This document shows, piece after piece, positions 1 through 43,610 of a DNA stretch of 64,000 nucleotides. Location of the stretch: positions 18,847 through 82,846 of the IMG/VR virus record IMGVR_UViG_3300032954_000003; one strand, given 5' to 3'. Source of the DNA: a virus. Lineage: Duplodnaviria; Heunggongvirae; Uroviricota; Caudoviricetes. Each line of letters starts with the position of its first letter. Position 1 is the stretch's first letter. The position numbers and the translations under genes are program-made. The notes below the pieces were generated by a model, which was not told the DNA's origin, searched no databases, and worked only from the letters and a program-made list of their open reading frames with translations.

Positions 1-654
1 AATCTTGACAAACTGAGACTCGACTACGCCTCCGTCACCGCCAACCTTTGGCCGTCCGTAGAATGCGGCAGGCGATGTACCGGCCGTCATTGACACCATC
101 CCGAACGACAGGTCTAGCGCCTCAGCGAGCTTCTGCGCGTGCGTTGTCTTGCCGGTACCCTTAGGACCAACCATCATCAGCGGGATGCGTGCCTCAGCGG
201 CAGTCTTGAGGTGCTCGGCAACGTTAGCGATGTTGTACTTACGCACGCCCAGCTCACGTCGTGCATCCTCGGGGAAGTGCATTGTGACCGCATCCTTGAC
301 TGCCTCGATCGGCACGCCGGCCTTGATGAGCTTGAGTCCGTCGAGCGTCGGGCGCATGCTCCACTCATCGAGCTTGTGGCCGTCCGCATTGCGGCGGTTG
401 CACAGTGTGCGCACTTCGCGGGACCATTCAAGATAGCCCTCAGGCCCGCTCTTGGGCTTCGGCGCCGGAGCCGGCGTCTGCGGGACCTCAATGCGCTGTC
501 CGCGTGCCTCGCGTGCCTCAGCGCGCTTGACGGCTGCGCGTGCGGTTGCGGGATACCCGAAGCCAAGCTCGTCGGCAATGCGGGCATACGTGTAGTGACG
601 GTGCCTACGAAGGTCGAGTGCTGCGGCGTCGGTACGGGGATTGACTGGGCTCAT
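1..654 (-). CDS. AAA-family ATPase with N-terminal HTH-like region; N-terminal start at 654, C-terminal end cut by the window
   Basis: Minus-strand translation from the ATG at 654-652 with AAGGAG 6 nt upstream. Walker A GPKGTGKTT is present. The frame runs open to the window edge. The plus-strand ORFs 139..762 and 149..436 are shadow frames of this gene. Confidence 0.6.
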   Translation of the reverse strand, partial: MSPVNPRTDAAALDLRRHRHYTYARIADELGFGYPATARAAVKRAEAREARGQRIEVPQTPAPAPKPKSGPEGYLEWSREVRTLCNRRNADGHKLDEWSMRPTLDGLKLIKAGVPIEAVKDAVTMHFPEDARRELGVRKYNIANVAEHLKTAAEARIPLMMVGPKGTGKTTHAQKLAEALDLSFGMVSMTAGTSPAAFYGRPKVGGDGGVVESQFVKI

Positions 655-825: not shown

Positions 826-1224
826 ATGGACGTTGATCCTGCCCTAGACCGGCGCATCCTGAATCTACGGATCGCAGGCGGAGGCATTACCGGCCTTGCC
901 GATCAGTTCGGCCTCACCGATCAAGAGGTGCTAGACGCGTGCAAGCGAGCCCTAGATGCGATGGAAGCGCGCGAACCTATTGCTCAGGTCCGAGACCTTG
1001 AACTAGCGCGAATCGACCTCTGCCTTCGAGCGGTCATCCCGCTTGCTCTCCAAGGCAATCTCACGGCAGCGCGCACAGCTCGTGAATTCATGCAGGATCG
1101 CCGCGACATTTACGGGCTGGATAATCTACGGCCGAAACCTGAAAGTGAACATGATCGGCTGGATGCTCTCAATGAGCGACGGCGAACACGTCGCACACGC
1201 GGTATGCCACACGCTAAGAAATAA
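826..1224 (+). CDS. terminase small subunit candidate (HTH DNA-binding)
   Basis: GGAGGGA RBS precedes the ATG at 826. HTH-like segment ILNLRIAGGGITGLADQFGLTDQEV. The stop overlaps the terminase large subunit start (TAATG), a typical terS-terL arrangement. Confidence 0.45.
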   Translation: MDVDPALDRRILNLRIAGGGITGLADQFGLTDQEVLDACKRALDAMEAREPIAQVRDLELARIDLCLRAVIPLALQGNLTAARTAREFMQDRRDIYGLDNLRPKPESEHDRLDALNERRRTRRTRGMPHAKK

Positions 1225-3731
1225 TGCAAGGTAATCAGTTCCCACGCATCAGTTGTTTACCAAAATACAGCTGCTCAGCAGGCGAAGAAGCAGTTGAGCT
1301 ATGTAGCATGATCGGCTTAGAGCTTGATCCCTGGCAACAATTTGTGCTGGAGAACTCGCTGGGTGAGGATGAGGAGGGCAAATGGGCTGCTTTTCAGGTA
1401 GGTTTAGTTGTAGCTCGACAGAACGGAAAGGGGCCTGCAAGTGTCACTACTCCCGTTCTAACGGGAAATGGGTGGACAACACTAGGAGAAGTAGAACCTG
1501 GTGACAGTGTTTACGGTGGAGATGGACGACCTATCAAGGTTGTTGCGTGTTCTGAGGTCTATCTAAATGAGCCGTGTTATGAGGTTACATTTACAGATGG
1601 GGCAAAGCATGTAGTTACGGCCGATCATTTATGGTGGGTAAAACATAAGGACCGGCGCCAGTGGGAAGCAGTTCAGACTGCTGATATCGCGCGAAAGTTT
1701 GCCAGTGAACGTGCAAATGGTCGGATGGAATATCTTTGGCGCGTACGTTGTGACGCAGTGCCAGAAACTCCAGAGGCTGATTTACCGATTCACCCATACA
1801 TCTTAGGGCTATGGTTAGGTGATGGGACTAGTAGGCGACCAGAACTAACCGTCTCAGACGAAGACAGACCGTTTATGCGTGGTGTCTTACAGGCTACAGG
1901 GCATGTAGTTACAAACGAGTCTCTAGGCAATAGAGAGCATGATCCTTGGCATATTGCTTTCCGTCTTGGACCAAAGATGAACAAAGAAGGCTTTCCAGCA
2001 CGACTGCGGTGGCTCAATGTTTATCGAAATAAGCACATTCCGGAGATTTATCTGGCGGCCTCAAAGACTCAAAGATTGGAACTGCTTCGTGGCTTGATGG
2101 ATACAGACGGCTCAGTTGCGACTACGAATAAGTCACCACAAGTTGAATTTTCGACATCCAGTGAGGCTCTTGCACTTGGTTTTCAACGTCTGGTAAGAAG
2201 TCTTGGTATTCGAGTCACACCGAAACGACGCAAGACAACGCACAAAGATAACTGGCGTTTCCTATGGACCCCGACTTTCAACCCGTTTAGATTGCCACGT
2301 AAGGCTACGAAATACAAGGCACCTCTGTCTAAACGTCAAGAGTTGATGAGTGTTATTGATGTGCAACCTGTTTCCTCAGTTCCGACACGCTGCATTCAAG
2401 TAGACAGTGAGGATGGTGTTTATCTACTTGGGCACCATTTCACCCCTACACACAACTGTGTGCTCCAGGCGCGTGAGCTTGCAGGCTTGTTTCTAGATTC
2501 ACTTAGTGAACGATTCATGCTTCATAGCGCACATCGTTACGACACAAGCCAAGAGCATTTCCACCGCTTAGTCCAACGTATTGAAGGTTCAGAAGAATTT
2601 AGCAAGCGTGTAAAGCGGATCTCGCGTTCGCATAATGAAGAAGGCATTACTATGTTGGATGGACGCCAACTTCGTTTCCGCGCTAGAACGTCCGTAGGCG
2701 GTCTCGGTTTCACCATCGACACTTTGGTATGCGATGAGGCTCAAATCCTGCCACAGAGCTTCCTAGCAGCTCTCCTGCCTACTCTCAGTGCCAGACCGAA
2801 CCCTCAGATATGGTTTGCAGGTACAGCAGCTGACCAAGAGCGCCACGAAGATGCCATTGTTCTAGCTACTCTAAGAGAGCAAGCACAAAGAGGTGACACT
2901 CAGAGTGTTTGCTACATGGAGTGGTCATTCGACTCAGATCATCCGCTCAAGGTTACACCGACACAATCGCTTGACCCTGAGGTCTGGGCACAAGCAAATC
3001 CCTCAATGGGGATTCGCATAGCCGATAGCTACATCGGCAAAGAGCGCGAGGCACTAGCACCGCGAGACTTTGCTGTTGAACGTTTGGGTGTAGGTGACTG
3101 GCCACGCACTGACGGACTAGAGGGTGTCATGATTACACCCGAAGCATGGGCCGCATGTACGGATGAGGCGTCTCAGATCGTCGGTCCTGTATGCTTTGCA
3201 GTTGACGTGACTCCCGATCGTTCTTATACAGCTATCGCTGTCGGCGGATTCCGTGAGGACGGTAAGACTCACGTTGAGATCGTGGAGCACAAACGTGGCA
3301 CAGGCTGGGTTGTGAAGCGGCTCGATGAATTACTTACAAATCATCGAGGCGTAGCGATCTGTGATGCTACTGGGCCTGTGGCTTCGTTGTTGCCAGAGCT
3401 AAAGGAGCAAAGACCATACGAAGAACCAGTGCTTCTCAGCTCACGTGAGCAAGCTCAAGCTTGTGGGTACATCTATGATGCTGTAGAGCAGGATACAATT
3501 CGGCATATAGGGCAAAGGGAGCTTTCAGATGCCATACGCGTTGCTGTAAGCCGTCCTCTCGGGGATGCATGGGCTTGGTCTAGGCGTAACGCTACAGGCG
3601 ATATTTCACCGCTTGTAGCGGCCACAATGGCACTATGGGGGACGCAAACATTAGAGATAAACGAACCAGCAGTAATCGACACGGCGGCTATAGAAGAACG
3701 TATGCGTCAGGAAGGTACGCTGGTAACCTAG
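1224..3731 (+). CDS. terL: terminase large subunit, interrupted by an intein
   Basis: P-loop VVARQNGKG, Walker B LVCDEAQ, and C-terminal RNaseH-like nuclease aspartates (AVDVTPDRSYTAIAV). The roughly 340-aa insert has Hint blocks and two LAGLIDADG motifs. Confidence 0.85.
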   Translation: MQGNQFPRISCLPKYSCSAGEEAVELCSMIGLELDPWQQFVLENSLGEDEEGKWAAFQVGLVVARQNGKGPASVTTPVLTGNGWTTLGEVEPGDSVYGGDGRPIKVVACSEVYLNEPCYEVTFTDGAKHVVTADHLWWVKHKDRRQWEAVQTADIARKFASERANGRMEYLWRVRCDAVPETPEADLPIHPYILGLWLGDGTSRRPELTVSDEDRPFMRGVLQATGHVVTNESLGNREHDPWHIAFRLGPKMNKEGFPARLRWLNVYRNKHIPEIYLAASKTQRLELLRGLMDTDGSVATTNKSPQVEFSTSSEALALGFQRLVRSLGIRVTPKRRKTTHKDNWRFLWTPTFNPFRLPRKATKYKAPLSKRQELMSVIDVQPVSSVPTRCIQVDSEDGVYLLGHHFTPTHNCVLQARELAGLFLDSLSERFMLHSAHRYDTSQEHFHRLVQRIEGSEEFSKRVKRISRSHNEEGITMLDGRQLRFRARTSVGGLGFTIDTLVCDEAQILPQSFLAALLPTLSARPNPQIWFAGTAADQERHEDAIVLATLREQAQRGDTQSVCYMEWSFDSDHPLKVTPTQSLDPEVWAQANPSMGIRIADSYIGKEREALAPRDFAVERLGVGDWPRTDGLEGVMITPEAWAACTDEASQIVGPVCFAVDVTPDRSYTAIAVGGFREDGKTHVEIVEHKRGTGWVVKRLDELLTNHRGVAICDATGPVASLLPELKEQRPYEEPVLLSSREQAQACGYIYDAVEQDTIRHIGQRELSDAIRVAVSRPLGDAWAWSRRNATGDISPLVAATMALWGTQTLEINEPAVIDTAAIEERMRQEGTLVT
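1434..2456 (+). other. intein with LAGLIDADG homing endonuclease inside terL
   Basis: Block B VTADHLW, LAGLIDADG motifs LGLWLGDG and LLRGLMDTDG, and C-terminal ...TPTHN followed by Cys+1. The N-terminal boundary is ambiguous (no Cys1; Ser73 or a class-3-like start). Confidence 0.7.
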
Positions 3732-6121: not shown

Positions 6122-8461
6122 TTGCCGATCCGAGTCCTAGACGCACCTCCTGTAGTTTCACTAAACGCCAAAGAAAAGAAGAAGATTCCTCAGCTTCTTC
6201 AGAGTCCCTATGAGCCAATCAGCTTTACTGATTGGATTGTCTGCATGATGTGGTCCCTAGCGCTACGTGGGAACTTCTTTGGACAGATCGTGGAACGTGA
6301 TCGTCTAGGTTATCCAACCCAGATCATGCCGGTCAACCCAGATTTAGTAAAACCCCATCAAGACCCCTCAGGGGTTATTGAATGGCGCTTTGCTGGCAAA
6401 GTAGTACCAACCGAAGATGTTTTTCACATCCGCTATCAGTACATGCCAGGAATGCTCTTAGGATTAAACCCTATCCAAGTCTGCAAGTACAGTTTTGGTT
6501 TAGGCCACGTCCTAGACGTACACGCAGAGACAACCTTCCGCAATAGCGCTAACCCACTAGGTGTTCTCGAAGCTAAGGGAACACCATCGCAGAATGCGGT
6601 TGAACAGATGATCCAGCGCTGGCACTCAATGCACCAAGGAGTGCGTCAGTCCAGTCTGCCGGCAATCCTGACTGAGGAAACGAAATTCAATCCGATCTCA
6701 ATTTCCCCAGAAGATCAACAACTGCTCGAAAGCAGGAAATACTCAGCCGAGGAAATATGTGGCATTGTTTTCCAAGTACCACCATTCATGCTTGGTATGA
6801 CCCAACGCTCAACCTGCCTTGCTGCTGGTACACCTGTGCTGACTGATAAAGGTCCGCGAGCAATTGAGACGATCAAAGCTGGTGAAAGGGTTTGGTCCCT
6901 CGACGAGTCTCAGGCTCGGTTTGTGTTGTCTAAGGTTGTAGCGCAAGAGAAGACTGGCTGTGACCCAATATTAACGATCAAGACGCGCCCTGGCCGTACG
7001 CTACGAGCAAATGCCAAACACAAAGTTCTAGTAAGGCGCAAATTCGCTAATCCACAACGGGGCGTTGGGAAGTATCGCTGTGTAGAGTGGCGCAACATAT
7101 GGACGACAGCGGGCGAGTTAAAGGTGGGTGACTATCTCATCGCCGGGCATGGTCTACCCGCAAGCGACAAGCGCACGGCTCCAAATGGACGAGAGCTAAC
7201 GCCGCAGTTTATGGAGTTCGCGGGGTTACTCATCGGTGATGGCAACGTCATCAAAGGCAACAAAGGTGTACCGGCGGTTGTAACGATTGCGCGTCATCGT
7301 GATGCCCGTTACATGGATGTTTACCGGCGCGGTGCTGAACGCGAGTTCAACGCAACCCATGGCGTTGGTACGGCAACTGAACGTAAGTTATCACCGATTA
7401 GGCTTCGTGAGTATGAGCGTTGCACGACGTTTTCATCCGTTACGGCAGCATCTGAGCTGGCAAGTCTCGGTTTCAGCGGTACAGCACATACAAAGCGTGT
7501 ACCTGAATGGCTGTTTGGCGTTGCGCCTGAGTTGCAACTCGCCTTCTTGCGTGGCTATGCTGACGCTGATGGTTCGGTTACTGAACGCGGAGAACTTATC
7601 TTCTGTTCATGCAACCCAGAGCTATTACAGGATGTGCGTCACCTTTGTATTCAGCTTGGGATTCCTGTAGGTCATCTGTGTGAGCATGATACGGCTGGCA
7701 CAGGGATGGTGATGGGGCGTAAAGTGACGCGTGGGAAGATGTATCGTCTAAATTGTTGCGATGCTGATTCGAACTTGCGCATTGGAACGCATGATTCACA
7801 GGACCTGAAGCGTTTGCAGCGGGCCAAGCGTTCGCCTAGACGCCAATGGTGGGATGCTGATTATCAGGGACGTGGTGGCAGCCCAGAGGCTCGTCCTGGA
7901 ACTTACTTCGACATTGAAGGCGCTCGTCTTCAGTGTATTACATCCATTGAGAAGTCTGCACCAGAGCCCGTGTATGATCTTACAGTCGAAGGTACCCATA
8001 CATTCTTGGCTGATGGTTTGGTTGTTCACAACAGCTACGGCCGTGGTATAGAGCAACAAGAGAGAACCTTTATTGCCAATACCCTCTCTGGATACCTCTG
8101 TCGCGTTGAGAGAGCGCTTACAGAATGCTTACCTGACGGGGAATACGTGAACTTTGACATACGTCACCGAGTCCGTGGCACGGCTGTAGAACGTGCTCAG
8201 CAAGCAAGCCTCCTAATGCTGTGCGGTGCTTGGTGCGCTGATGACTCTAGAGCCTTATTTGATATGCCTCCACTACCAAACGGAGAAGGCAAAATCTTCA
8301 ATACACCACTCAACACTGAGCTGCTTGAGAAGGCGCTTCTCGAAGTCAAGCAGATGGAAAAAGAAGAAGATGAACCAGAAGCGCCACCTCAGAACCCACA
8401 GTTTATGCCGGTTCCGGGTGGCGGTAGGGGTCCAAAAGCTCCTGCTGTTCCTAGGAGTTAG
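6122..8461 (+). CDS. portal protein (HK97-family-like) interrupted by an intein; true N-terminus probably upstream of 6122
   Basis: Portal-like segments flank a 406-aa insert with Hint blocks and LAGLIDADG motifs. The conserved portal N-terminal motif (AAVYGCVSLLANSIASLP) lies in-frame upstream of the TTG at 6122. Confidence 0.8.
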   Translation: MPIRVLDAPPVVSLNAKEKKKIPQLLQSPYEPISFTDWIVCMMWSLALRGNFFGQIVERDRLGYPTQIMPVNPDLVKPHQDPSGVIEWRFAGKVVPTEDVFHIRYQYMPGMLLGLNPIQVCKYSFGLGHVLDVHAETTFRNSANPLGVLEAKGTPSQNAVEQMIQRWHSMHQGVRQSSLPAILTEETKFNPISISPEDQQLLESRKYSAEEICGIVFQVPPFMLGMTQRSTCLAAGTPVLTDKGPRAIETIKAGERVWSLDESQARFVLSKVVAQEKTGCDPILTIKTRPGRTLRANAKHKVLVRRKFANPQRGVGKYRCVEWRNIWTTAGELKVGDYLIAGHGLPASDKRTAPNGRELTPQFMEFAGLLIGDGNVIKGNKGVPAVVTIARHRDARYMDVYRRGAEREFNATHGVGTATERKLSPIRLREYERCTTFSSVTAASELASLGFSGTAHTKRVPEWLFGVAPELQLAFLRGYADADGSVTERGELIFCSCNPELLQDVRHLCIQLGIPVGHLCEHDTAGTGMVMGRKVTRGKMYRLNCCDADSNLRIGTHDSQDLKRLQRAKRSPRRQWWDADYQGRGGSPEARPGTYFDIEGARLQCITSIEKSAPEPVYDLTVEGTHTFLADGLVVHNSYGRGIEQQERTFIANTLSGYLCRVERALTECLPDGEYVNFDIRHRVRGTAVERAQQASLLMLCGAWCADDSRALFDMPPLPNGEGKIFNTPLNTELLEKALLEVKQMEKEEDEPEAPPQNPQFMPVPGGGRGPKAPAVPRS
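6815..8032 (+). other. intein with LAGLIDADG homing endonuclease inside the portal gene
   Basis: Starts with Cys (STCLAAGTPVLT). Block B TLRANAKH, LAGLIDADG motifs FAGLLIGDGN and FLRGYADADGS. Ends VYDLTVEGTHTFLADGLVVHN followed by Ser+1. Confidence 0.8.
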
Positions 8462-8640: not shown

Positions 8641-8641
8641 A

Positions 8642-8716
8642 TGGACCTGAAGAGATTCGAACTCTTATCCTCCTCGGTGCAAACGAGGCGCTCTACCAAT
8701 TAGGAGCTACAGGCCC
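8642..8716 (-). tRNA. tRNA-Ala (anticodon TGC)
   Basis: Hand-folded cloverleaf. G3:U70 identity pair, anticodon loop TTTGCAC, TTCGAAT T-loop, discriminator A. Confidence 0.75.
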
Positions 8717-8718
8717 AA

Positions 8719-8790
8719 AGGCGGCGGTGGGATTCGAACCCACGTTGAACAGCTTTGCAGGCCGTTACGTATCCATTCCGTCACGCCGCC
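8719..8790 (-). tRNA. tRNA-Cys (anticodon GCA)
   Basis: Acceptor GGCGGCG pairs with CGCCGCC, anticodon loop CTGCAAA, discriminator U. Confidence 0.7.
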
Positions 8791-8800
8791 GTTAGCGAGT

Positions 8801-8989
8801 CTAGCACGCTTCGAGTCGATATTGCAAGCGTATACACTCGTACAAGTCACCCTCACCCATGACCTCACCAGTCATGCCTCTTACGACGTACCATTTACCT
8901 CGGGTCTTCTTAGTGGGCCCAGAGATTACACGATACTCGCATGGTGGTGCGTGTAGTACATAACTATCATCGGGCATGCGTAATCTCAT
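8801..8989 (-). CDS. hypothetical small protein (62 aa); ATG begins 2 nt after the tRNA-Val(TAC) 3' end
   Basis: ORF MRLRMPDD...; no room for an RBS, so it would be leaderless after tRNA processing. The longer track ORF 8801..9139 overlaps the tRNA and is rejected. Confidence 0.3.
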   Translation of the reverse strand: MRLRMPDDSYVLHAPPCEYRVISGPTKKTRGKWYVVRGMTGEVMGEGDLYECIRLQYRLEAC

Positions 8990-8991
8990 AG

Positions 8992-9064
8992 TGGACGATT
9001 CAGGGATCGAACCTGAGACCTCTGCTTTGTAAGAGCAGTGCTCTACCTGCTGAGCTAATCGTCC
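8992..9064 (-). tRNA. tRNA-Val (anticodon TAC)
   Basis: Cloverleaf GGACGAT...ATCGTCC, anticodon loop CTTACAA, T-loop TTCGATC. Confidence 0.75.
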
Positions 9065-9369
9065 GTGGGTGCTGGCTTCCAGCTTACGATAGCACCTAGC
9101 CGTACGTACACAAAACCATCCAACACTGAAATACCCCAACCGTCGTCATATGCGATTACGCACCCTGGTTTGAGCTTATCCTCTAAACCGCCGTTCCAAG
9201 GATCGAATGCGTATGGCAACTCTCCTACTGCGAGAACAATAGCTGTACGGAGTGTTCGAGTACGTATTAGAGGTGACGGCTGTTGGTCGTCTGGTATCTC
9301 GGTCGGCAATGGAATTGCTACCAGAAAACCCGCCATTGGTTGCATTGGTGGCTCTGTATTTACATCCAT
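9055..9369 (-). CDS. hypothetical protein (104 aa); ATG begins 4 nt after the tRNA-Met 3' end
   Basis: Protein-like composition (GCVIAYDDGWGISVLDGFVYV). The last 3 codons overlap the 5' end of tRNA-Val(TAC). Confidence 0.35.
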   Translation of the reverse strand: MDVNTEPPMQPMAGFLVAIPLPTEIPDDQQPSPLIRTRTLRTAIVLAVGELPYAFDPWNGGLEDKLKPGCVIAYDDGWGISVLDGFVYVRLGAIVSWKPAPTDD

Positions 9370-9373
9370 GAGA

Positions 9374-9445
9374 TGGGCGGTCTTGGATTCGAACCAAGGT
9401 CCAACACGTTATGAGCATGCGGCTCTACCCCTGAGCTAACCGCCC
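9374..9445 (-). tRNA. tRNA-Met (anticodon CAT; elongator or Ile-lysidine type not distinguishable)
   Basis: Acceptor GGGCGGT pairs with ACCGCCC (G1-C72, so not an initiator). Anticodon loop CTCATAA. Confidence 0.7.
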
Positions 9446-9603
9446 CTATATATGTCACGCTGTCTAAAGTTAGCACTACATCCGTAGCGGTTACATCTTG
9501 CGTAAATGTAGCCGTGGCGCTCCAGAAAGCGCCAATTATGGCCTACAACGTAGCACCTGCTATGGCTCCACGCAAGTCTAATGTAATGAACTATTGCCAA
9601 GAG

Positions 9604-9675
9604 TGGGCGATGGTGGATTCGAACCACCGACCCCTACGTTGTCACCGTAGTGCTCTCCCGCTGAGCTAATCGCCC
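9604..9675 (-). tRNA. tRNA-Val (anticodon GAC)
   Basis: Cloverleaf GGGCGAT...ATCGCCC, anticodon loop GTGACAA. Confidence 0.65.
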
Positions 9676-9769
9676 GTGGTATTGCGCCACGCATTCGTTG
9701 CAATAGCACCTGCTACAAAGCTTAGCGTGAGCAGATGATCTACATCAATGCGGTTACTTGTTATGGTTT

Positions 9770-9952
9770 CTACCTCTTTATGGTTTCTACCTCTTGTGCC
9801 GCCTCAGCTAACATTGTACCGGCTATCTGGGCGCACTTGTGCACTTCACCACTAGGTAGCCCAGCTTCGGACAAGTCCCTATCAAGGGTACTCTCTGGAT
9901 GCTTGACTAGTCTTTCGAAGATCCGTCTAAAACACTGATGGTAACTGTCCAT
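9770..9952 (-). CDS. hypothetical small protein (60 aa); ATG begins 2 nt after the tRNA-Ile 3' end
   Basis: ORF MDSYHQCFRRIFERLVKH...; it contains a 17-bp tandem duplication. Confidence 0.3.
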   Translation of the reverse strand: MDSYHQCFRRIFERLVKHPESTLDRDLSEAGLPSGEVHKCAQIAGTMLAEAAQEVETIKR

Positions 9953-9955
9953 AAT

Positions 9956-10030
9956 GGGCGATGAAGGAATTGAACCTTCGACCTTTTCCTTATCAGAGAA
10001 ACGCTCTAACCAAACTGAGCTAATCGCCCA
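9956..10030 (-). tRNA. tRNA-Ile (anticodon GAT)
   Basis: Cloverleaf GGGCGAT...ATCGCCC, anticodon loop CTGATAA, T-loop TTCAATT. Confidence 0.75.
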
Positions 10031-10032
10031 AC

Positions 10033-10105
10033 GCGCCTGGGCGGATTCGAACCGCCGATCTCATGCTCCGGAGGCATGCGCTCTTTCCTCTAAGCTACAG
10101 GCGCA
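10033..10105 (-). tRNA. tRNA-Arg (anticodon CCG)
   Basis: Acceptor GCGCCTG pairs with CAGGCGC, anticodon loop CTCCGGA, discriminator G. Confidence 0.7.
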
Positions 10106-10181
10106 GGTGTGTTGGTCAGTCTAGAACCGTTTTGGGAGGTCTAGTCAAGTAGAGAAGTGCTGTCAAGGGTAGACGAGTCAA

Positions 10182-10254
10182 TGGGACGTCAGGGATTTGA
10201 ACCCCTGGTCGGCCGGTTAAGAGCCGGCTACTCTACCAATTGAGTTAACGTCCC
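10182..10254 (-). tRNA. tRNA-Lys (anticodon CTT)
   Basis: Acceptor GGGACGT pairs with ACGTCCC, anticodon loop CTCTTAA, T-loop TTCAAAT. Confidence 0.75.
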
Positions 10255-36642: not shown

Positions 36643-36947
36643 CTCTCATCCCGCATTTCGCTGCGCCCTTTGCCTTTAGTGCGAAGGGCGTAGTGAATGT
36701 TACCGAACAAGATAGTCAGCAGGAAATCTCAGACTGCATCTTCAATGTTGCTAGTTGCTTTGAAAACTTCCGCGAAGACTTGCCCGAATTTGGCATACCG
36801 GATCTAACATTCGAACAGATCCCACTGAATCTCGAAGCACTACAAGCGGCACTAAACCGCTGGGAACCGCGAGCGGAACTTACGCTTGAAGAAACAGAAG
36901 AACTTATGAATCCAGCAGCGCGTGCTGTATCGATCGAAGTGTTCTAG
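36639..36947 (+). CDS. baseplate wedge protein, GPW/gp25 family
   Basis: Segment FGIPDLTFEQIPLNLEALQAALNRWEPRAEL matches the GPW_gp25 signature (WEPR). Confidence 0.6.
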   Translation: MTLIPHFAAPFAFSAKGVVNVTEQDSQQEISDCIFNVASCFENFREDLPEFGIPDLTFEQIPLNLEALQAALNRWEPRAELTLEETEELMNPAARAVSIEVF

Positions 36948-38317
36948 AGAAGCTCTGCACGTTGGCGTATATCGAGTATGTGGTGCTGCCGTTCCAGCTT
37001 GCCGTCCTCAAAAAGCTTTAGCAGATAGTTGATGCCATCTGCTCCCTCCGCCAACGTTGCCAAAACACCCCTCCGGATAGTCAGCTTTAGCCGTCCGGCT
37101 TTGCTTGTCTTATCGGAACCTAGTGGTTCCTTATAGACAGGGTGCCACTCGCCTTCGCGCTTTTGTGCGCTGCACTTGAACGCAAACCTCTGGGTGTCGC
37201 GGTTGAGCTTTTGCAGTAGACCACCACCCATACCGAAAACCAAGTTCTCAGCAGCCCAACCAGCCTCTGCGGTAACGTCGAGGATCTGTTGGATATCGGC
37301 TGGTGTTAGACCATCGCCCCATAGGACGCGGACGTGGGGATCGAGTACGGTTCGCTTGCCGTTTGAGGTGCCACCAAACGCATCGCCTAGTGTCTGAAGA
37401 ATCCAGGTTACCAGCTCGCCTGGTGTTTTGTGTGCATCAGTGACTGAGTCAGGTCGTATAACAACAGGACCACCCTCGCGCTGCATGATCTCTTTCTTAC
37501 GCGCACAGATGTTGTATACGCAGTCATAGACGTTGTAGCTATCTACTACGATGGATAGCGGTCCTGAAGGGTACTGTTCGAGGATGTGACTAATCATGTC
37601 ATCCTCTCCCTCAGGGCCAAGCGCAGTCATTACTGAGTGCTCGGTCGCTGGTACGCTAGATCCAAGCTCTTCGTGGTAGCTGTCGCGCAACAGCTGGATA
37701 GCTGGCAACGTGTCTGTACCTAGGAAATTCACAAGGTGTGCCGCTCCACCTATAGCTGCTGCATCATGCGTTGTAGCGCCTCGATAGCCAAAGTCATGGA
37801 GCATAAAAGGCAAACCATTGAGCGAGCTTCCTGTATCCTCTAGTGCCTTTTTCAGCATTATCTTCACCTCTCGGCTAAGGGTTGCCACCGTGCATGGGTA
37901 CCACAAATGTGTTAGGTAGCTCTCGATGGCATTTGTTAGCCAGTAGCACTCGGGATCAGTGTTCTCGACCGTCATCAAGACATTGCCAGTCGGGATAGCC
38001 ATTCCCTCAGGGACAGCTCTTATGAGCAAAGGAAGTTTGCCATCATGCCAGTTGATGATGTGTTCCCACCCCTCAGTGTTAATCATGTCATCCGACCCGA
38101 AGTGCTTGCTTGCAAGCTGTTGCGCCTCTTGCAGGTGCTCGTCGGTTACTACCTCACCCGTGAGACCGCGTAGCAGGTGCTGTAAGCCGAAGAAAACGGT
38201 GTAGGGGTACCTTGCCCCTACTCGACTCTCGAAGTAGCTGTAAACGTGTTCAGTGCCCTCTGGATATTGTTTCCAGTGCGTGAGCTTGTATGAATCGGTT
38301 GCAAGTATGAGGTTCAT
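36944..38317 (-). CDS. nadV: nicotinamide phosphoribosyltransferase (NadV/NAMPT)
   Basis: Hallmark N-terminus MNLILATDSYKLTHWKQYP; 457 aa. Confidence 0.8.
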   Translation of the reverse strand: MNLILATDSYKLTHWKQYPEGTEHVYSYFESRVGARYPYTVFFGLQHLLRGLTGEVVTDEHLQEAQQLASKHFGSDDMINTEGWEHIINWHDGKLPLLIRAVPEGMAIPTGNVLMTVENTDPECYWLTNAIESYLTHLWYPCTVATLSREVKIMLKKALEDTGSSLNGLPFMLHDFGYRGATTHDAAAIGGAAHLVNFLGTDTLPAIQLLRDSYHEELGSSVPATEHSVMTALGPEGEDDMISHILEQYPSGPLSIVVDSYNVYDCVYNICARKKEIMQREGGPVVIRPDSVTDAHKTPGELVTWILQTLGDAFGGTSNGKRTVLDPHVRVLWGDGLTPADIQQILDVTAEAGWAAENLVFGMGGGLLQKLNRDTQRFAFKCSAQKREGEWHPVYKEPLGSDKTSKAGRLKLTIRRGVLATLAEGADGINYLLKLFEDGKLERQHHILDIRQRAELL

Positions 38318-39282
38318 CTCTTTACCTTTCGTATCTCTAAACCGCTGGTGTCGAGTTCAAGTTCTTCCACAACATGTAGTAATGCTCTGGACAATAGAGG
38401 TCGATGGTTTGGCATGACCTTGAGTTCAAGGTCTATGTCCAGTATGGATTCGTCTCCACGCCAGATATCGAACCAACCTACTTCCTCAATGTCGTCGTCT
38501 GGCCGAGGTGTACCGCTTTGGTGCTTAGCAGCGAACAGTAAAGTCTTGACCTTGTCTTGCTCGTTGCGATAGCGCCAGTCATCAACTTTGAAGGAACCGA
38601 GATACATTGGGTCCGTGATTTCTATGTGTGTCTCCTCATGCACCTCGCGCCGAGCATCCTGCTCAAATGTCTCTGAGGATGGATCAGCGAACCCACCGAT
38701 CAAGCGCCATAGCTTCTCGTCTGCCTTACGGCACAGAAGAATACGCTCGTAATCCTCACTGAAAACAGCTATATCTACTGTTGTAAACGAGGTAGGAAAG
38801 CGACTCTGCGAAGCCCACACAACACCAGCGCGCCAATCTGGCGAGTTCTTAGTTCGCCGGCGTCCCACCTCCTTTCGAAGCTGGCTGCCAGATACTCGGA
38901 TATAGTGCTCAGGCTCAAGTACCTCAGTAGGGTATGCCCCTCTGTAATGCTCTATGAATGAGTCCCGACCACCATATAGGATTGGACTCTGGGCAGGCGT
39001 GGTAACCTTGGCTATCTCAGCATCGAGCTTACGGCTCCAAAGCTGATCGTTGTTGACGTCCTGTATATAGAGAACATTGAGGTCTGGATAGGCAGCTAAA
39101 AGCATCTGCTTTCGCGCTTCAAAATCCAGCGGATTCTCAGCTGTTACTGGCAAAGGTGACAACCCAAGAAAGACAATCACCTTGTGGTGTTTGGCACAGA
39201 CGCTCTCAATCAAATGTCTGTGCATCCCATGCAAGTCGTGGACTTGAAAACGTCCCACGATGACGCCTACGTCGTGTTCCAT
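38314..39282 (-). CDS. nadM: bifunctional NMN adenylyltransferase / Nudix hydrolase (NadM-Nudix)
   Basis: Cytidylyltransferase motif GRFQVHDLHGMH (HxGH). C-terminal Nudix box GGFADPSSETFEQDARREVHEETHIEI. Confidence 0.75.
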   Translation of the reverse strand: MEHDVGVIVGRFQVHDLHGMHRHLIESVCAKHHKVIVFLGLSPLPVTAENPLDFEARKQMLLAAYPDLNVLYIQDVNNDQLWSRKLDAEIAKVTTPAQSPILYGGRDSFIEHYRGAYPTEVLEPEHYIRVSGSQLRKEVGRRRTKNSPDWRAGVVWASQSRFPTSFTTVDIAVFSEDYERILLCRKADEKLWRLIGGFADPSSETFEQDARREVHEETHIEITDPMYLGSFKVDDWRYRNEQDKVKTLLFAAKHQSGTPRPDDDIEEVGWFDIWRGDESILDIDLELKVMPNHRPLLSRALLHVVEELELDTSGLEIRKVKR

Positions 39283-39346: not shown

Positions 39347-39715
39347 ATGGGCTATAGCGATCCGCAACGGCAGCGCGAGTATCAGCGAGAGTGGGTGGCT
39401 AAACGTCGCGCGGAATATTTTGCTGACAAGTCGTGCGTTGTCTGCGGTAATACCAATGACCTTCAGCTTCACCACCTCGATCCAGCGCAAAAGATCAGTC
39501 ACAACATTTGGGGTTGGCGACGTGAGCGCATGGAAGCCGAGATAGCCAAGTGTGAGGTTCGCTGTTCCGCTTGTCATCGCAAACACCACTATGTATTATG
39601 GCGTAAGCACGGCATCGGCACTTATATGAAGAAGGGTTGTCGCTGCTTTATCTGTTATAGAGCAAAGGCAGCAGCGACACGACGTGAAACTCGATACGGA
39701 GGCGGCGCGAGTTGA
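39347..39715 (+). CDS. HNH endonuclease (small)
   Basis: CVVCGNTNDLQLHHLDP...CSACHRKHH pattern. Confidence 0.65.
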   Translation: MGYSDPQRQREYQREWVAKRRAEYFADKSCVVCGNTNDLQLHHLDPAQKISHNIWGWRRERMEAEIAKCEVRCSACHRKHHYVLWRKHGIGTYMKKGCRCFICYRAKAAATRRETRYGGGAS

Positions 39716-39794
39716 ACGCGCAGACCGCCGCTAAGGACGGCCACGAGGTTTAGCAAACCCGCTGGCGCACCACATGCCCAGCACCTCCAAGCTT

Positions 39795-40124
39795 TCAAAA
39801 CCCCACCTTCTTTTTCTTAGTAGAAGGCTTGGGTGGTGCTTGTAGTATACGACCTAAGGCGCTCTCAAACACCATGAAGTCTCTGTCTTCCTCACTGAGG
39901 AGCGGAGTGGGCTGATGACCACCCTTGCGCCTTGGGCGAAGTATTTCATTGAGTCTGTTAGGCGAGAGCCCCGCCTCCTTTGCAATCTCCTCAGGATCGA
40001 CACCAGCATCACGAGCCTCAATGCACCTTTCCGACAAGTCCTTGAGTGCTTCCATCTGCGCTCGCACAGCTTGAGCCCGTTTCCATGCTGCGCTACGGAC
40101 TGCCTCAAGAGTGTCCTTGGTCAT
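39795..40124 (-). CDS. HTH DNA-binding protein; ATG starts 1 nt after the tRNA-Asn 3' end
   Basis: HTH EIAKEAGLSPNRLNEIL. No space for an RBS between the tRNA and the ATG. Confidence 0.45.
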   Translation of the reverse strand: MTKDTLEAVRSAAWKRAQAVRAQMEALKDLSERCIEARDAGVDPEEIAKEAGLSPNRLNEILRPRRKGGHQPTPLLSEEDRDFMVFESALGRILQAPPKPSTKKKKVGF

Positions 40125-40125
40125 A

Positions 40126-40197
40126 CTGGCAACCTGGGATTCGAACCCAGAACCGTTCGGTTAACAGCCGAGCGCTCTGCCATTGAGCTAGTTGCCA
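40126..40197 (-). tRNA. tRNA-Asn (anticodon GTT)
   Basis: Acceptor TGGCAAC pairs with GTTGCCA, anticodon loop CTGTTAA, discriminator G. Confidence 0.7.
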
Positions 40198-40324
40198 TTT
40201 TGTTCTAATTTTTGGTCGGTTCACCGCGCCGACGCTTCAGGATAGCGCCTAGCAGTGATTCCGAATGATCCCATTTACCAAACAGATACTTCCAAATCAT
40301 TGACCACTCCTTTGTAGTGTCTAG

Positions 40325-40396
40325 AACGGGTGGCGAGGATCGAACTCGCTCTTAGAGCTTGGAAAGCTCTCGTGCTGCCAAGTACACCTCACCCGC
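40325..40396 (-). tRNA. tRNA-Gly (anticodon TCC), atypical A8 and G1.U72
   Basis: Cloverleaf with anticodon loop TTTCCAA and T-loop TTCGATC. Position 8 is A and 1-72 is a G.U pair. Confidence 0.5.
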
Positions 40397-40538
40397 GAAG
40401 AAATTGCCGTCGCCTAGAGCTGCCGCTTCAGCTCTAATTGACGGACTTGCCCTATTGGTTTATAGAAGGGCTATACATGCCTATTTCGGCCTCACGCGAG
40501 CGGTGCGGCATATTAGCTGTAGCTGCTTTTCGCGTTAG

Positions 40539-40628
40539 CGGAAAGCGGAGGAGTCGAACCCCTGCCTCGTCTTAGGAGACAACTGGTTTTCAAGACCAGC
40601 GCCGAGACCGACCTCGGCCGCACTTTCC
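40539..40628 (-). tRNA. tRNA-Ser (anticodon TGA), type II
   Basis: Anticodon stem-loop CTGGT-CTTGAAA-ACCAG, long variable arm GTCTCCTAAGAC, discriminator G; 90 nt. Confidence 0.65.
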
Positions 40629-40770
40629 ATATGTGCGGATTACCCCAACCCTTCGGCTTTCCGCAAGCTCGGTCACCTACCGAGTTCCCTCAGATAAGAG
40701 ATGAAATGTCACTCCCCGCATAACGCAACACTTCATTCCGCGCGGGTTAGCGGACCCTACCCTTATCCTA

Positions 40771-40843
40771 AGTGCACGGTGGGATTTGAACCCACGGCCT
40801 TCACGTTGGCAACGTGACGCTCTACCAGCTGAGCTACGCACAC
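40771..40843 (-). tRNA. tRNA-Gly (anticodon GCC)
   Basis: Acceptor GTGTGCG pairs with CGTGCAC, anticodon loop TTGCCAA, discriminator U. Confidence 0.65.
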
Positions 40844-41140
40844 ATAAGCGTTGCCTACACGACAAGCCTCTCAGGTACATCCGGTTTGCTTGTCCCGTTT
40901 TGTCCTTCAGGAACTAACCCATCCGTAAGCGCCTATCTGTACTTAGCGCAACCTCGGCAACGCAATAACGACTATAGCGTATCTAGCCGGCTCGTGCAAG
41001 CAGCGTGGATGCTGACAACTTAGTAGCTGGTGCTTCTTTGGACTTAGACATAGACATCAACGATACAGTAGACCGTCCTTCTTGGGGTGGACTGAATTCA
41101 GCAAAGTCATAAGCAAGCTCGGGCTTTGCTAAGTCCTTGC

Positions 41141-41353
41141 CTAGAAAGGGCGCACCACAACCTGGCAGCGGTCTAGCTTTGCTTGATCGGCAACAATCTC
41201 GTCCGGAATCGCACGAGCTGCGATCATTTGCGCCTTACCCTCATCGCGTGCCAAGATGCGTGTTACATCGACGACAAGCTTGGCCTCTTCAGTGACTTCA
41301 CCATCCTTGTCTGTTTTCTCGTCAAGAATAACGGCGTACTCGAAAATCTCCAT
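41141..41353 (-). CDS. hypothetical small acidic protein (70 aa)
   Basis: GAAAGGAAC RBS precedes the ATG. Confidence 0.5.
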   Translation of the reverse strand: MEIFEYAVILDEKTDKDGEVTEEAKLVVDVTRILARDEGKAQMIAARAIPDEIVADQAKLDRCQVVVRPF

Positions 41354-41574
41354 CGTGTTCCTTTCTTGCAGACAAATCCCCTAGCCCGCCCTCACGGCTC
41401 TCTATTGAAGTGATGCTGGTAATAACGATTCACCGTTACGATGCTCAATTGAGCTGTACACCTGCCGTACGATGAGGTGTTTCAACAGGTTTCTAGGTGT
41501 CGTAGATTGGGCCGACCAAGGCCAAGGAAAAGGTGCATCCGTCCTTCGCTAGATAACCGCTACCGACTGTCTGC

Positions 41575-42033
41575 TTAGATTAGGTCTGTAGCCCAGTTGA
41601 CTACCTGGATTTCATTGTCCAACTTCCGCAACTTTGCAGAAGTCTTATCAGCTTTTTCATGCAGTGCCTTTACATCCACATGCCGTGTGAGCTTTAGCTC
41701 AGACCGCATATAGCGGAAAGCACTAGTGTCACCTTGAGCAGCATCAGCCGCTTGCTTATAGGTGGCGATCAAGCCAGCCAAACGGTCACGTTCGGCGAGC
41801 GCATCTGTGAGTGTCCCCTTCTTGAACTTCGTAGAAGCGTTTGTATGGTTGATACGACCGATTAGGACCGCTAGGGCCTCATGAACCGTCTCTGCTTCTG
41901 AGATGAGCGTAGACGCGTTCTCAGGAGGTGTTGTATCCTCTTGTGCCGCTGCACTCATACTGATGCGGCTACGTAGTTCGCTAATGCGCTTTTGTAAGCG
42001 TGCGCGCTCTGAAAGCGCCTCTCCTAGTTTCAT
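41575..42033 (-). CDS. hypothetical helical protein
   Basis: The ATG (MKLGEALSERARLQKRISELRS) has an AAGGTGAG RBS; the track start at 42102 is an extension. Confidence 0.5.
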   Translation of the reverse strand: MKLGEALSERARLQKRISELRSRISMSAAAQEDTTPPENASTLISEAETVHEALAVLIGRINHTNASTKFKKGTLTDALAERDRLAGLIATYKQAADAAQGDTSAFRYMRSELKLTRHVDVKALHEKADKTSAKLRKLDNEIQVVNWATDLI

Positions 42034-42063
42034 TCTCTCACCTTGGTTTACTTGGTTACCGGA

Positions 42064-42135
42064 TTGCCGACCGAGGATTCGAACCTCAACCTCAGGGGCC
42101 AAAACCCTGCGTCACTGCCTTTAGACTAGTCGGCA
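42064..42135 (-). tRNA. tRNA-Gln (anticodon TTG)
   Basis: U1-A72 acceptor TGCCGAC pairs with GTCGGCA, anticodon loop TTTTGGC. Confidence 0.6.
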
Positions 42136-42208
42136 CTGGCGACCGAGGGCTCGAACCTCGAATACTGCGTCCAGAGCGCAGCGTCTTTCCTATTTAGACT
42201 AGTCGCCA
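42136..42208 (-). tRNA. tRNA-Gln (anticodon CTG)
   Basis: U1-A72 acceptor TGGCGAC pairs with GTCGCCA, anticodon loop CTCTGGA, discriminator G. Confidence 0.65.
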
Positions 42209-42282
42209 TACCCGCCGAGGGATTCGAACCCCCACTTTCCTGTTCTTGAAACAGTTGCCTCTACCGATTGGGCTACACGGGC
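42209..42282 (-). tRNA. atypical type-I tRNA with anticodon CAA (Leu UUG codon) but short variable arm; isotype undetermined
   Basis: 74 nt: GCCCGTG-TA-GCCC...AGGC-A-ACTGT-TTCAAGA-ACAGG-AAAGT-GGGGG-TTCGAAT-CCCTC-GGCGGGT-A. A73, G37, 5-nt variable loop. Confidence 0.5.
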
Positions 42283-42289
42283 TTGTACA

Positions 42290-43369: not shown

Positions 43370-43417
43370 GACCACACTTACAGGTGCTATAGATTGTGGC
43401 TTCTAACTTGTTCATAG

Positions 43418-43605: not shown

Positions 43606-43610
43606 TTGAG

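What the first reader, a model, noticed from the sequence alone, without database searches (positions are those of the whole stretch)
8801..9956. ORFs that start 1-4 nt after tRNA 3' ends: candidate tRNA-punctuated leaderless mRNAs
In four places a minus-strand ORF begins with ATG immediately downstream of a co-oriented tRNA. After tRNA-Val(TAC) it is A-CT-ATG (ORF 8801..8989). After tRNA-Met it is A-TCTC-ATG (9055..9369). After tRNA-Ile it is A-TT-ATG (9770..9952). After tRNA-Asn it is G-T-ATG (39795..40124, an HTH protein). None has room for a Shine-Dalgarno sequence. 3'-processing of the tRNA (RNase Z/E) would release an mRNA whose 5' end is essentially the AUG. That is a leaderless transcript of the kind actinobacterial ribosomes translate efficiently. 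Recurrence four times argues against coincidence. It resembles mitochondrial tRNA punctuation.
Basis: partly seen in the sequence, partly recalled or inferred. Interest (0 to 1): 0.55.

Follow-up and report, generated by a model that had tools for sequence, protein, structure and literature searches.

The report
Phage genes starting right after tRNAs
In this uncultured phage, five small genes begin 1-4 bases after the end of a tRNA gene, with no room for a ribosome-binding site, so cutting out the tRNA probably creates the end of the message from which they are translated; this is inferred from sequence only and has not been shown.

Summary
All four ATGs sit 1-4 pyrimidines after the discriminator base of a co-oriented tRNA that does not encode its CCA end. 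I found a fifth case after tRNA-Leu(tag). The ORFs fill the gaps between tRNAs almost exactly (shuffle P 0.0007-0.004 each).

- **Are they genes?** ORF104 is a real gene: it has remote homologues in other phages, and residues conserved upstream of its internal Met support the ATG next to the tRNA. ORF109 looks coding by codon usage and has a helical, HTH-like model. ORF62 and ORF60 are weaker. ORF60 seems truncated by a 17-nt duplication.
- **Start signals:** none has a Shine-Dalgarno sequence, and there is no room for a promoter. The other post-tRNA genes on the contig start 24-131 nt downstream with clear AGGAG-type sites.
- **Other phages:** the same arrangement occurs at about 4% of 413 phage tRNAs, with a dip at 6-10 nt. 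It is strictly conserved at the tRNA-Gln/nuclease junction in five Streptomyces phages.

Co-transcription, RNase Z-type cleavage and leaderless-type translation are inferred, not shown. One point against full punctuation: ORF104's stop codon lies inside the next tRNA. Verdict: a plausible new variant of known leaderless and tRNA-punctuated expression, of moderate interest.

The parts
9955..10029 (-). tRNA-Ile(gat). No encoded CCA. Discriminator A at 9955, trailer TT, then ATG.
   Evidence: ARAGORN. Rfam 73.4 bits. Sequence.
9770..9952 (-). ORF60. The ATG is 2 nt after tRNA-Ile and there is no SD. Its stop lies in the second copy of a 17-nt tandem duplication.
   Evidence: Codon score 0.110 per codon; 6.3% of spurious ORFs reach this. 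Called at full length by the source gene caller. SD energy +1.9. No homologues.
9758..9791 (-). 17-nt tandem duplication (GGTAGAAACCATAA plus 3 nt, twice). Removing one copy gives an 89-aa ORF that runs to the TAG inside tRNA-Val(gac).
   Evidence: period 17; reconstructed ORF; the extension has a codon score of +0.256 in the continuing frame and -1.15 and -0.81 in the other two.
9604..9675 (-). tRNA-Val(gac). The 157-nt spacer downstream of it holds no coding-like ORF.
   Evidence: The TTG ORF that spans the spacer scores -0.168.
9374..9445 (-). tRNA-Met(cat). Discriminator A at 9374, trailer TCTC, then ATG.
9055..9369 (-). ORF104, a real small phage protein. Its ATG is 4 nt after tRNA-Met. 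Its stop codon TAG is positions 8-10 of tRNA-Val(tac), a 10-nt overlap.
   Evidence: Codon score 0.227; 1.1% of spurious ORFs reach it. HMMER homologues P0004 (E 2.9e-7) and P0005 (E 2.5e-6). Alignment A1 has T5, P7, P11, M12 and G14 invariant, so coding extends upstream of M9. SD energy -0.5.
8992..9064 (-). tRNA-Val(tac). Discriminator A at 8992, trailer CT, then ATG.
8801..8989 (-). ORF62. The ATG is 2 nt after tRNA-Val(tac). The stop is 10 nt before tRNA-Cys.
   Evidence: Codon score 0.107. The source caller called 58 aa from M5. No homologues. SD energy +0.3.
8719..8790 (-). tRNA-Cys(gca), which bounds ORF62 at its 3' side. A promoter-like TTGCAA-18-TAGACT ends 7 nt upstream of it.
   Evidence: Loose motif scan.
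40126..40197 (-). tRNA-Asn(gtt). Discriminator G at 40126, trailer T, then ATG.
39795..40124 (-). ORF109, a helical HTH-like protein. The ATG is 1 nt after tRNA-Asn. The stop is 5-6 nt before tRNA-Ser(gct).
   Evidence: Codon score 0.207. Weak PHROG HTH hits, E 5.6e-4. Single-sequence AF2 pLDDT 70, with a helix from residue 3. Called at full length by the source caller.
39697..39788 (-). tRNA-Ser(gct), which bounds ORF109 at its 3' side.
43418..43504 (-). tRNA-Leu(tag). Discriminator A, trailer CT, then ATG. This is the fifth case, not in the finding.
43305..43415 (-). ORF36 (MNKLEATIYSTCKCGHDALLH...). The ATG is 2 nt after tRNA-Leu(tag). It is weak on its own and possibly continues in the +1 frame (43232..43375).
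   Evidence: Codon score -0.06 for ORF36 and +0.216 for the overlapping frame. No family hit for the fused sequence.
40205..40300 (-). Contrast case: a 31-aa ORF 24 nt after tRNA-Gly(tcc), with the SD AAAGGAG.
   Evidence: Codon score 0.278.
41575..42033 (-). Contrast case: the DUF6847 gene 30 nt after tRNA-Gln(ttg), with the SD AAGGTGAGAG.
   Evidence: (Pfam E 5.6e-44).

Best explanation
Five small phage genes are packed into two tRNA arrays as tRNA-ORF-tRNA modules. Each start codon lies 1-4 pyrimidines after the discriminator base of a co-oriented tRNA that does not encode CCA.

The most likely mechanism is this. Each ORF is transcribed together with the tRNA in front of it. Endonucleolytic 3' maturation of that tRNA, an RNase Z-type cut directly after the discriminator, frees an RNA whose 5' end is 1-4 nt from the AUG. 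That RNA is translated by the 5'-end-dependent, leaderless-type route. RNase P cleavage at the next tRNA trims the 3' side.

Shown: the geometry; its non-randomness; that at least one and probably two or more of the ORFs are genes; the absence of an SD; no detectable promoter within the tRNA 3' halves; weak structure at the putative 5' ends; and a two-class spacing.

Inferred: co-transcription, the cleavage site, and the mode of translation.
For: - **Exact junctions:**
- **ORFs fill the spacers:** shuffle P 0.00065-0.0042.
- **Frequency:** 5 of 10 tRNAs with free downstream space, against 4.1% in 413 phage tRNAs.
- **ORF104 is real:** homologues; residues conserved upstream of M9.
- **Codon usage:** ORF104 and ORF109 score in the range of real genes.
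- **No SD:**. The other post-tRNA genes on the contig start 24-131 nt downstream with AGGAG-like SDs.
- **No promoter:** no sigma-70-type match in array 1, and no TANNNT in the tRNA 3' halves (read).
- **tRNA ends:** all 21 tRNAs lack CCA and have a pyrimidine at +1, and none of the five trailers starts with CC. RNase Z cuts directly after the discriminator and is inhibited by CC/CCA trailers (PMC7479834).
- **Weak 5' structure:** the first 42 nt have ensemble energies of -2.8 to -6.1 kcal/mol, against a mean of -8.8 for internal windows.
- **Generality:** first-ATG offsets after phage tRNAs number 17 at +1..+5, 3 at +6..+10 and 64 at +14..+22. Several of the abutting ORFs carry Pfam domains.
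- **Conservation elsewhere:** the tRNA-Gln/G-C-GTG nuclease junction is invariant in five Streptomyces phages, although only 33 of 71 tRNA columns are invariant.
Against: - There are no expression data of any kind.
- ORF104's stop codon lies inside tRNA-Val(tac). RNase P cleavage would therefore leave a non-stop mRNA, so at least that ORF must be read before or instead of full processing.
- The leaders are 1-4 nt, not 0. From my own knowledge, extra 5' nucleotides lower leaderless translation in E. coli, and 5'-monophosphate ends invite RNase J/E attack.
- The host is unknown.
- No close relative exists in the databases, so conservation at these loci cannot be tested.
- ORF60 looks disrupted by a duplication and ORF36 by a frame change, which hints at decay.
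- Homologues of ORF104 sit in ordinary operons with 4-nt gene overlaps, not next to tRNAs.
- The enrichment in the generic sample is modest: Fisher P 0.07-0.11 when all ATGs are counted.
Confidence: 0.4

Rival explanations
1. The ORFs are real, but the adjacency is only a by-product of genome compaction, or of tRNA genes having been inserted at junctions of tightly packed small genes. Translation starts by SD-independent initiation on unprocessed or partly processed tRNA-mRNA precursors. tRNA 3' processing plays no positive role, or even competes with expression.
For: - About half of the window's genes lack a strong SD anyway.
- Protein-protein gene junctions in this phage commonly overlap by 1-4 nt.
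- ORF104 homologues lie in operons with 4-nt overlaps.
- ORF104 needs the downstream tRNA sequence for its stop codon. The same -10 overlap is seen in two IMG/VR cases.
Against: - A folded acceptor/T-arm 1-4 nt upstream of the AUG would occupy the space a 30S subunit needs on the 5' side of the start codon. This is inference from the known ribosome footprint, not a test.
- The dip at +6..+10 and the separate mode at +1..+5 are not expected from compaction alone.
- The junction is strictly conserved in the Streptomyces phages while the tRNA body diverged.
Confidence: 0.25
2. Most of these ORFs, especially ORF60, ORF62 and ORF36, are not expressed. They are decaying remnants or chance open frames between tRNAs, and the ATG next to the tRNA has no function.
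For: - ORF60 and ORF62 have only borderline codon scores; 6.3% of spurious ORFs do as well.
- Neither has a homologue.
- ORF60 carries a frame-breaking 17-nt duplication.
- ORF36 scores as non-coding.
- A non-coding TTG ORF also spans the Val(gac)-to-Met spacer by chance.
Against: - Shuffle P values of 0.004 or less for each ORF.
- ORF104 has true homologues.
- ORF109 has gene-like codon usage and a confident helical core.
- The 5' ends are unstructured, like real start regions.
- Abutting ORFs with Pfam domains exist in other phages.
Confidence: 0.2
3. These are ordinary promoter-made leaderless mRNAs. A promoter inside the tRNA gene starts transcription at the A of the ATG, and tRNA processing is not involved.
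For: Promoter-positioned leaderless starts may exist elsewhere on the contig. One is TTGCCT-17-TACCCT, 7 nt before the ATG of the uS12-like gene. Another is TTGCCT-17-TAACGT, 10 nt before the ATG at 11635.
Against: - No TANNNT hexamer lies 6-8 nt upstream of any of the five ATGs (sequences).
- No sigma-70-type match in array 1.
- A promoter would have to sit within conserved T-arm and acceptor sequence.
Confidence: 0.04

Closest known systems
Mitochondrial tRNA punctuation (animal mtDNA; the Ojala-Attardi model, referenced in PMC4633059 and reviewed in PMC4394434)
   Same: The coding regions are flanked directly by tRNAs. The 5' UTRs would be 0-4 nt, the mRNAs would be released by RNase Z and RNase P cuts, and translation would be leaderless.
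   Different: Here only 5 of 24 tRNAs on the contig are followed this way, and other genes have normal SD leaders. Stop codons are complete, or in one case lie inside the next tRNA, rather than being completed by polyadenylation. The processing is not demonstrated. The genome is a bacterial virus.
Plant mitochondrial t-elements that define mRNA ends (PMC1920247)
   Same: tRNA or tRNA-like structures processed by RNase P and RNase Z set the mRNA termini.
   Different: Those are mostly tRNA-like elements in organelles, and the resulting mRNAs keep leaders. Here real tRNAs sit directly against start codons.
Promoter-derived leaderless mRNAs of Actinobacteria (PMC4633059, PMC3848588, PMC4681348)
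   Same: No SD, a start codon at or within a few nt of the 5' end, and small proteins or regulators among the products.
   Different: In those cases the 5' end is a primary triphosphate transcription start set by a -10 box. Here no promoter fits, and the 5' end would be a processed monophosphate end.
MazF-generated leaderless mRNAs in E. coli (Vesper et al. 2011, as discussed in PMC3848588 and PMC4681348)
   Same: A leaderless mRNA is made after transcription by an endonuclease cut just upstream of the AUG.
   Different: That system uses a toxin nuclease at ACA sites under stress and leaves 5'-OH ends. Here a housekeeping tRNA-maturation enzyme would make the cut constitutively.
Annotated tRNA/CDS abutments in cultured Streptomyces phages of the BillNye group (NC_042105 gp109 nuclease after tRNA-Gln; gp114 after tRNA-Glu)
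   Same: A gene starts 1-4 nt after a co-oriented tRNA that does not encode CCA, in a phage tRNA array. The junction is conserved in five phages.
   Different: The phage lineage and the genes are different, and one case uses a GTG start. Only 2 of about 13 junctions are of this type, against 5 of 9 here. As far as my searches show, nobody has commented on or tested these either.

Membership tests
tRNA genes (Rfam RF00005) | Cloverleaf covariance-model score above the gathering threshold, and a 7-bp acceptor stem plus discriminator | tested here: met
   All five upstream tRNAs score 56-73 bits against a 29-bit threshold. Acceptor pairing was checked.
RNase Z-type substrates (CCA-less pre-tRNAs) | No encoded CCA, and a trailer that does not begin with CC | tested here: met
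   0 of 21 tRNAs encode CCA. The five trailers are CT, TCTC, TT, T and CT. The rule is taken from PMC7479834.
RNase Z-type substrates (CCA-less pre-tRNAs) | Actual cleavage directly 3' of the discriminator in the host | not testable with these tools
   This needs RNA 5'/3'-end mapping. The host is unknown.
Leaderless mRNA | No Shine-Dalgarno pairing upstream of the start codon | tested here: met
   Anti-SD duplex energies are 0.3, -0.5, 1.9 and -3.2 kcal/mol, against a gene median of -5.25. For ORF36 the value of -6.4 comes from sequence inside the folded tRNA.
Leaderless mRNA | RNA 5' end at, or within a few nt of, the start codon | not testable with these tools
   Only the potential is shown: 1-4 nt would remain if the cut falls after the discriminator.
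Leaderless mRNA (primary, promoter-made) | A -10 hexamer (TANNNT) ending 6-8 nt upstream of the start codon | tested here: not met
   No such hexamer is present in the tRNA 3' halves (sequences). No sigma-70-type site in array 1.
Mitochondrial-type tRNA punctuation | Coding regions abutted on both sides by tRNAs on one strand | tested here: met
   ORF62: 2 nt and 10 nt. ORF104: 4 nt and a 10-nt overlap. ORF109: 1 nt and 5-6 nt. ORF60: 2 nt and 94 nt, or an overlap if the duplication is removed.
Mitochondrial-type tRNA punctuation | Long polycistronic precursor cut by RNase P and RNase Z | not testable with these tools
   Promoter-like motifs inside array 1 suggest several short tRNA-ORF units rather than one long precursor. 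These are pattern matches only.
Mitochondrial-type tRNA punctuation | Incomplete stop codons completed by polyadenylation | tested here: not met
   ORF62, ORF60 and ORF109 have complete stops. After an RNase P cut ORF104 would end ...CCC AC, with no partial stop.
Canonical SD-led phage genes | AGGAG-like motif 5-13 nt upstream of the start | tested here: not met
   In contrast, the post-tRNA genes at 40300, 42033, L127:3574 and L128:15573 do carry one.

The most novel reading that the evidence does not exclude
Translation coupled to tRNA 3' processing is a general, so far undescribed way of expressing genes in phage tRNA arrays. The RNase Z cut that matures a CCA-less tRNA also makes the 5' end of a leaderless-type mRNA. 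This would link production of small phage proteins to the flux of tRNA maturation, and it would be a bacterial-virus counterpart of mitochondrial tRNA punctuation. This contig would be an extreme example (5 of 9 post-tRNA genes), and the Streptomyces phages of the BillNye group would be a culturable test system.
Probability: 0.3. Interest if true: 0.75.

Novelty: new variant of a known kind. Interest (0 to 1): 0.55.

Why it matters
If true, it adds a post-transcriptional route to leaderless mRNAs in bacteria and phages that uses housekeeping tRNA-maturation enzymes. It also gives a reason why small ORFs are interleaved with tRNAs in phage arrays.

It has a practical use for annotation. Gene callers moved two of these starts to internal Met codons. 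The homologue alignment shows that was wrong for ORF104.

It is directly testable in cultured Streptomyces phages, where the same junction is conserved. If false, the arrangement is simply extreme compaction, and the ORFs are poorly expressed or not expressed at all.

Tried and rejected
- **Looking for relatives to test conservation at these loci.** Megablast and blastn against 50,697 phage genomes matched only the tRNAs. A scan of IMG/VR with the neighbouring 270-aa protein found nothing. Word-index searches of 5.8 billion proteins with ORF104, ORF109 and ORF62 returned only the source contig's own proteins. tblastn of all four ORFs against phages found nothing meaningful.
- **Family assignment.** Pfam and PHROG gave nothing for ORF62, ORF104 or ORF60, and only weak HTH hits for ORF109.
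- **Structure of ORF104.** The single-sequence AF2 model was uninformative, with pLDDT 46.
- **Other RNA elements in the spacers.** Rfam found only tRNAs.
- **A promoter of their own.** Rejected.
- **The TTG ORF that fills the Val(gac)-to-Met spacer.** Rejected as non-coding, with a codon score of -0.17.
- **Fusing ORF36 with the +1 frame.** No family hit, so the proposed frameshift stays unproven.
- **Literature.** I found no paper describing leaderless mRNAs made by tRNA 3' processing in bacteria or phages. The library lacks most subscription journals, so this absence is weak evidence.
- **Host markers.** The Pfam scans gave nothing decisive.
Full report
**What the window is.** The window is the reverse complement of part of a 108,815-bp metagenome contig, ENA ERZ27256576 k141_4285166. 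It is a tailed phage. Its large terminase carries an intein and is 40% identical to those of Mycobacterium cluster J phages. The same contig encodes Ku and an ATP-dependent DNA ligase. The lineage is therefore actinophage-like, but the host is not established. No phage in INPHARED or IMG/VR is close at the DNA level, or through the neighbouring 270-aa protein.

**The observation.**
- ARAGORN finds 21 tRNAs in the window, all on the minus strand, in two arrays: 8641-10254 and 39696-43798. Rfam confirms 17 of them at gathering score, including all those at issue.
- I re-derived each discriminator from acceptor-stem pairing and read the sequence. The ORFs are 8801..8989, 9055..9369, 9770..9952 and 39795..40124.
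- A fifth junction was missed: Leu(tag) A-CT-ATG, ORF 43305..43415.
- No tRNA encodes CCA. All 21 have a pyrimidine as the first trailer base.

**Is it chance?**
- In shuffles of each inter-tRNA spacer, an ATG in the first 0-5 nt that opens an ORF at least as long appears with P = 0.0037, 0.00065, 0.0042 and 0.00085.
- The ORFs nearly fill their spacers: 189 of 200 nt; the whole 308-309-nt spacer plus a 10-nt overlap into the next tRNA; 330 of 336 nt; and 183 of 278 nt.
- As an outside baseline I fetched 120 IMG/VR loci using a generic tRNA pattern and found 976 tRNAs in them. I then measured where the first ATG of a co-oriented ORF of 50 codons or more lies after the mature tRNA end. Among 413 tRNAs with free space downstream, 17 lie at +1..+5, 3 at +6..+10 and 64 at +14..+22. 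The far background is about 6.5 per five positions.
- The distribution therefore has two modes. One is the expected SD-led mode. The other is a small abutting mode, with 1-5 against 6-10 giving P = 0.0026, and against the far background P = 0.0005. The signal is weaker when all ATGs are counted, at P 0.07-0.11.
- Against the 4.1% baseline, 5 of 10 in this window has P of about 2.5e-5. That figure is post hoc, and the fifth ORF is shorter than the 50-codon cutoff.

**Are the ORFs genes?** I built a codon-usage log-likelihood trained on 36 long genes of the window and cross-validated it.

| ORF | Score per codon | Share of spurious alternative-frame ORFs scoring as high |
|---|---|---|
| ORF104 | 0.227 | 1.1% |
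| ORF109 | 0.207 | 1.1% |
| ORF62 | 0.107 | 6.3% |
| ORF60 | 0.110 | 6.3% |
| ORF36 | -0.06 | 32.7% (33%) |

- **ORF104.** A full HMMER scan of 1.84 billion representatives found two small homologues, of 94 and 116 aa, with E 2.9e-7 and 2.5e-6. They align end to end, and T5, P7, P11, M12 and G14 are invariant. Coding therefore reaches upstream of Met9, where the metagenome gene caller had placed the start. The ATG next to tRNA-Met is the only start codon available. Both homologues sit in ordinary phage early operons with 4-nt gene overlaps and no tRNA nearby.
- **ORF109.** It has weak PHROG HTH hits. Its single-sequence AlphaFold model has pLDDT 70, and helix 1 starts at residue 3.
- **ORF62 and ORF60.** Neither has a detectable homologue.
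- **ORF60.** It ends inside the second copy of a 17-nt tandem duplication. Deleting one copy yields an 89-aa ORF that runs to the TAG inside tRNA-Val(gac). The added 35 codons score +0.256 in that frame, against -1.15 and -0.81 in the other two. The ancestral gene probably filled the whole spacer, as ORF104 does.

**Start signals.**
- About half of the window's genes have an SD of -5 kcal/mol or better, against 15% of random sites. The four candidates have 0.3, -0.5, 1.9 and -3.2.
- The remaining post-tRNA genes on the contig start 24, 29, 30 and 131 nt after the tRNA, with AAAGGAG, AAAGGA, AAGGTGAGAG and AAAGGAGA. Post-tRNA genes therefore fall into two clean classes.
- No sigma-70-type promoter match lies in array 1, and no TANNNT sits 6-8 nt before any of the five ATGs.
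- The first 42 nt of the RNAs that a cut after the discriminator would release are weakly structured. Their ensemble energies are -2.8 to -6.1 kcal/mol, against -8.8 (sd 3.4) for internal coding windows and -6.8 for other gene starts.
- RNase Z cuts directly after the discriminator and is blocked by trailers that start with CC or CCA (PMC7479834). None of these trailers does.

**Mechanism.** The tRNA and ORF are co-transcribed, a tRNA 3'-maturation cut leaves a 1-4-nt leader, and translation starts from the 5' end. I give it about 0.4.
- The steps from co-transcription onward are inference.
- A loose scan finds four TTGNNN-16..18-TANNNT motifs inside array 1, each 7-101 nt upstream of a tRNA (about 0.5 expected). 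The units may therefore be short promoter-tRNA-ORF modules rather than one long precursor.
- The main internal objection is ORF104. Its stop codon is bases 8-10 of tRNA-Val(tac), so RNase P cleavage would leave a non-stop message. Two IMG/VR examples share this -10 overlap. It seems to be a tolerated feature of such arrays, and it implies that translation and processing compete.

**Generality.**
- In Streptomyces phage BillNye, 2 of about 13 tRNA-to-CDS junctions abut: gp114 after tRNA-Glu, and the gp109 nuclease after tRNA-Gln.
- Aligning the tRNA-Gln/nuclease junction from five phages shows the tRNA body invariant at only 33 of 71 columns. The junction GGGGA-G-C-GTG is invariant, and 31 of the first 36 coding bases are too. 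Synonymous third positions are invariant at 8 of 12 there, against 4 of 17 further in.
- IMG/VR examples include ORFs with 2OG-Fe(II) oxygenase, Laminin_G_3 and DUF5522 domains. They come from loci of 32-63% GC, so the arrangement is not confined to actinophages.

**Literature.** Searches of the held library found tRNA punctuation only for organelles, and leaderless mRNAs made either by promoters or by MazF. I found no description of leaderless mRNAs generated by tRNA 3' processing in bacteria or phages. The library is incomplete, so this is weak evidence of novelty.

**Verdict.** I rate it a new variant of known kinds (leaderless mRNA and tRNA punctuation), with interest about 0.55.

Noticed in passing
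window 55531..55923 (+); promoter-like site 55495..55523: A full-length ribosomal protein uS12 homologue ([13 protein letters not shown]...; Pfam Ribosom_S12_S23, E 1e-11). The source caller called only 78 aa of it. TTGCCT-17-TACCCT ends 7 nt before its ATG and there is no SD, so it may be a promoter-made leaderless gene.
   Followed up: partly
window 9758..9791 (-): A 17-nt tandem duplication truncates ORF60. Without it the ORF is 89 aa and ends at the TAG inside tRNA-Val(gac), and the extension has gene-like codon usage. It could be a real mutation or an assembly artefact.
   Followed up: partly
window 43232..43415 (-): The ORF after tRNA-Leu(tag) has a CxCGHxxxxH motif, then loses coding signal. 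The +1 frame is coding-like and has a CPC motif. This may be a frameshift, either a sequencing error or programmed.
   Followed up: partly
window 8641..10254 and 39696..43798 (-): None of the 21 tRNAs encodes CCA, and all have a pyrimidine (15 T, 6 C) directly after the discriminator.
   Followed up: partly
window 8798..8827, 9086..9113, 9547..9575, 9719..9748 (-): Four loose promoter-like motifs (TTGNNN-16..18-TANNNT), each 7-101 nt upstream of a tRNA in array 1. The one before tRNA-Cys would start transcription at the mature 5' end. Stronger TTGC(C/A)-17-TATAGT sites lie at 44060..44088 and 40971..40999, upstream of array 2 tRNAs.
   Followed up: partly
window 1224..3731 (+) and 6122..8461 (+): Both the large terminase and the portal protein carry inteins (LAGLIDADG, Hint and Intein_splicing Pfam hits).
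   Followed up: no
window 36944..38317 (-) and 38314..39282 (-): A NAMPT-like enzyme and a NUDIX protein with a cytidylyltransferase-like N-terminus lie next to each other just downstream of tRNA array 2. This looks like an NAD salvage pair.
   Followed up: no
window 42355..43020 (-) and 41575..42033 (-): A calcineurin-like metallophosphoesterase and a DUF6847 protein are embedded in tRNA array 2. BillNye's tRNA region also carries phosphoesterases, an RNA ligase and a polynucleotide kinase.
   Followed up: no
L128 14808..17252 (same contig, beyond the window end): A Ro60/TROVE gene is preceded by two tRNA-Met genes and a weak YrlA (Y RNA-like) match (35 bits, E 8e-5, below the gathering score). 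About 1 kb of non-coding DNA lies on each side.
   Followed up: partly
L127 5307..6991 (same contig, before the window start): Ku and an ATP-dependent DNA ligase lie side by side. From my own recollection, a non-homologous end-joining pair like this is known in some mycobacteriophages.
   Followed up: no
window 39347..39715 (+): A 122-aa ORF rich in Cys and His lies on the opposite strand and overlaps the 3' end of tRNA-Ser(gct) by about 19 nt. The source caller called it, but it has no Pfam hit.
   Followed up: no
L002 8230..8437 with L129-L132: In five Streptomyces phages, the first 36 nt of the nuclease gene after tRNA-Gln are more conserved than the tRNA itself, including at synonymous sites. 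This suggests an RNA-level constraint at the junction.
   Followed up: partly
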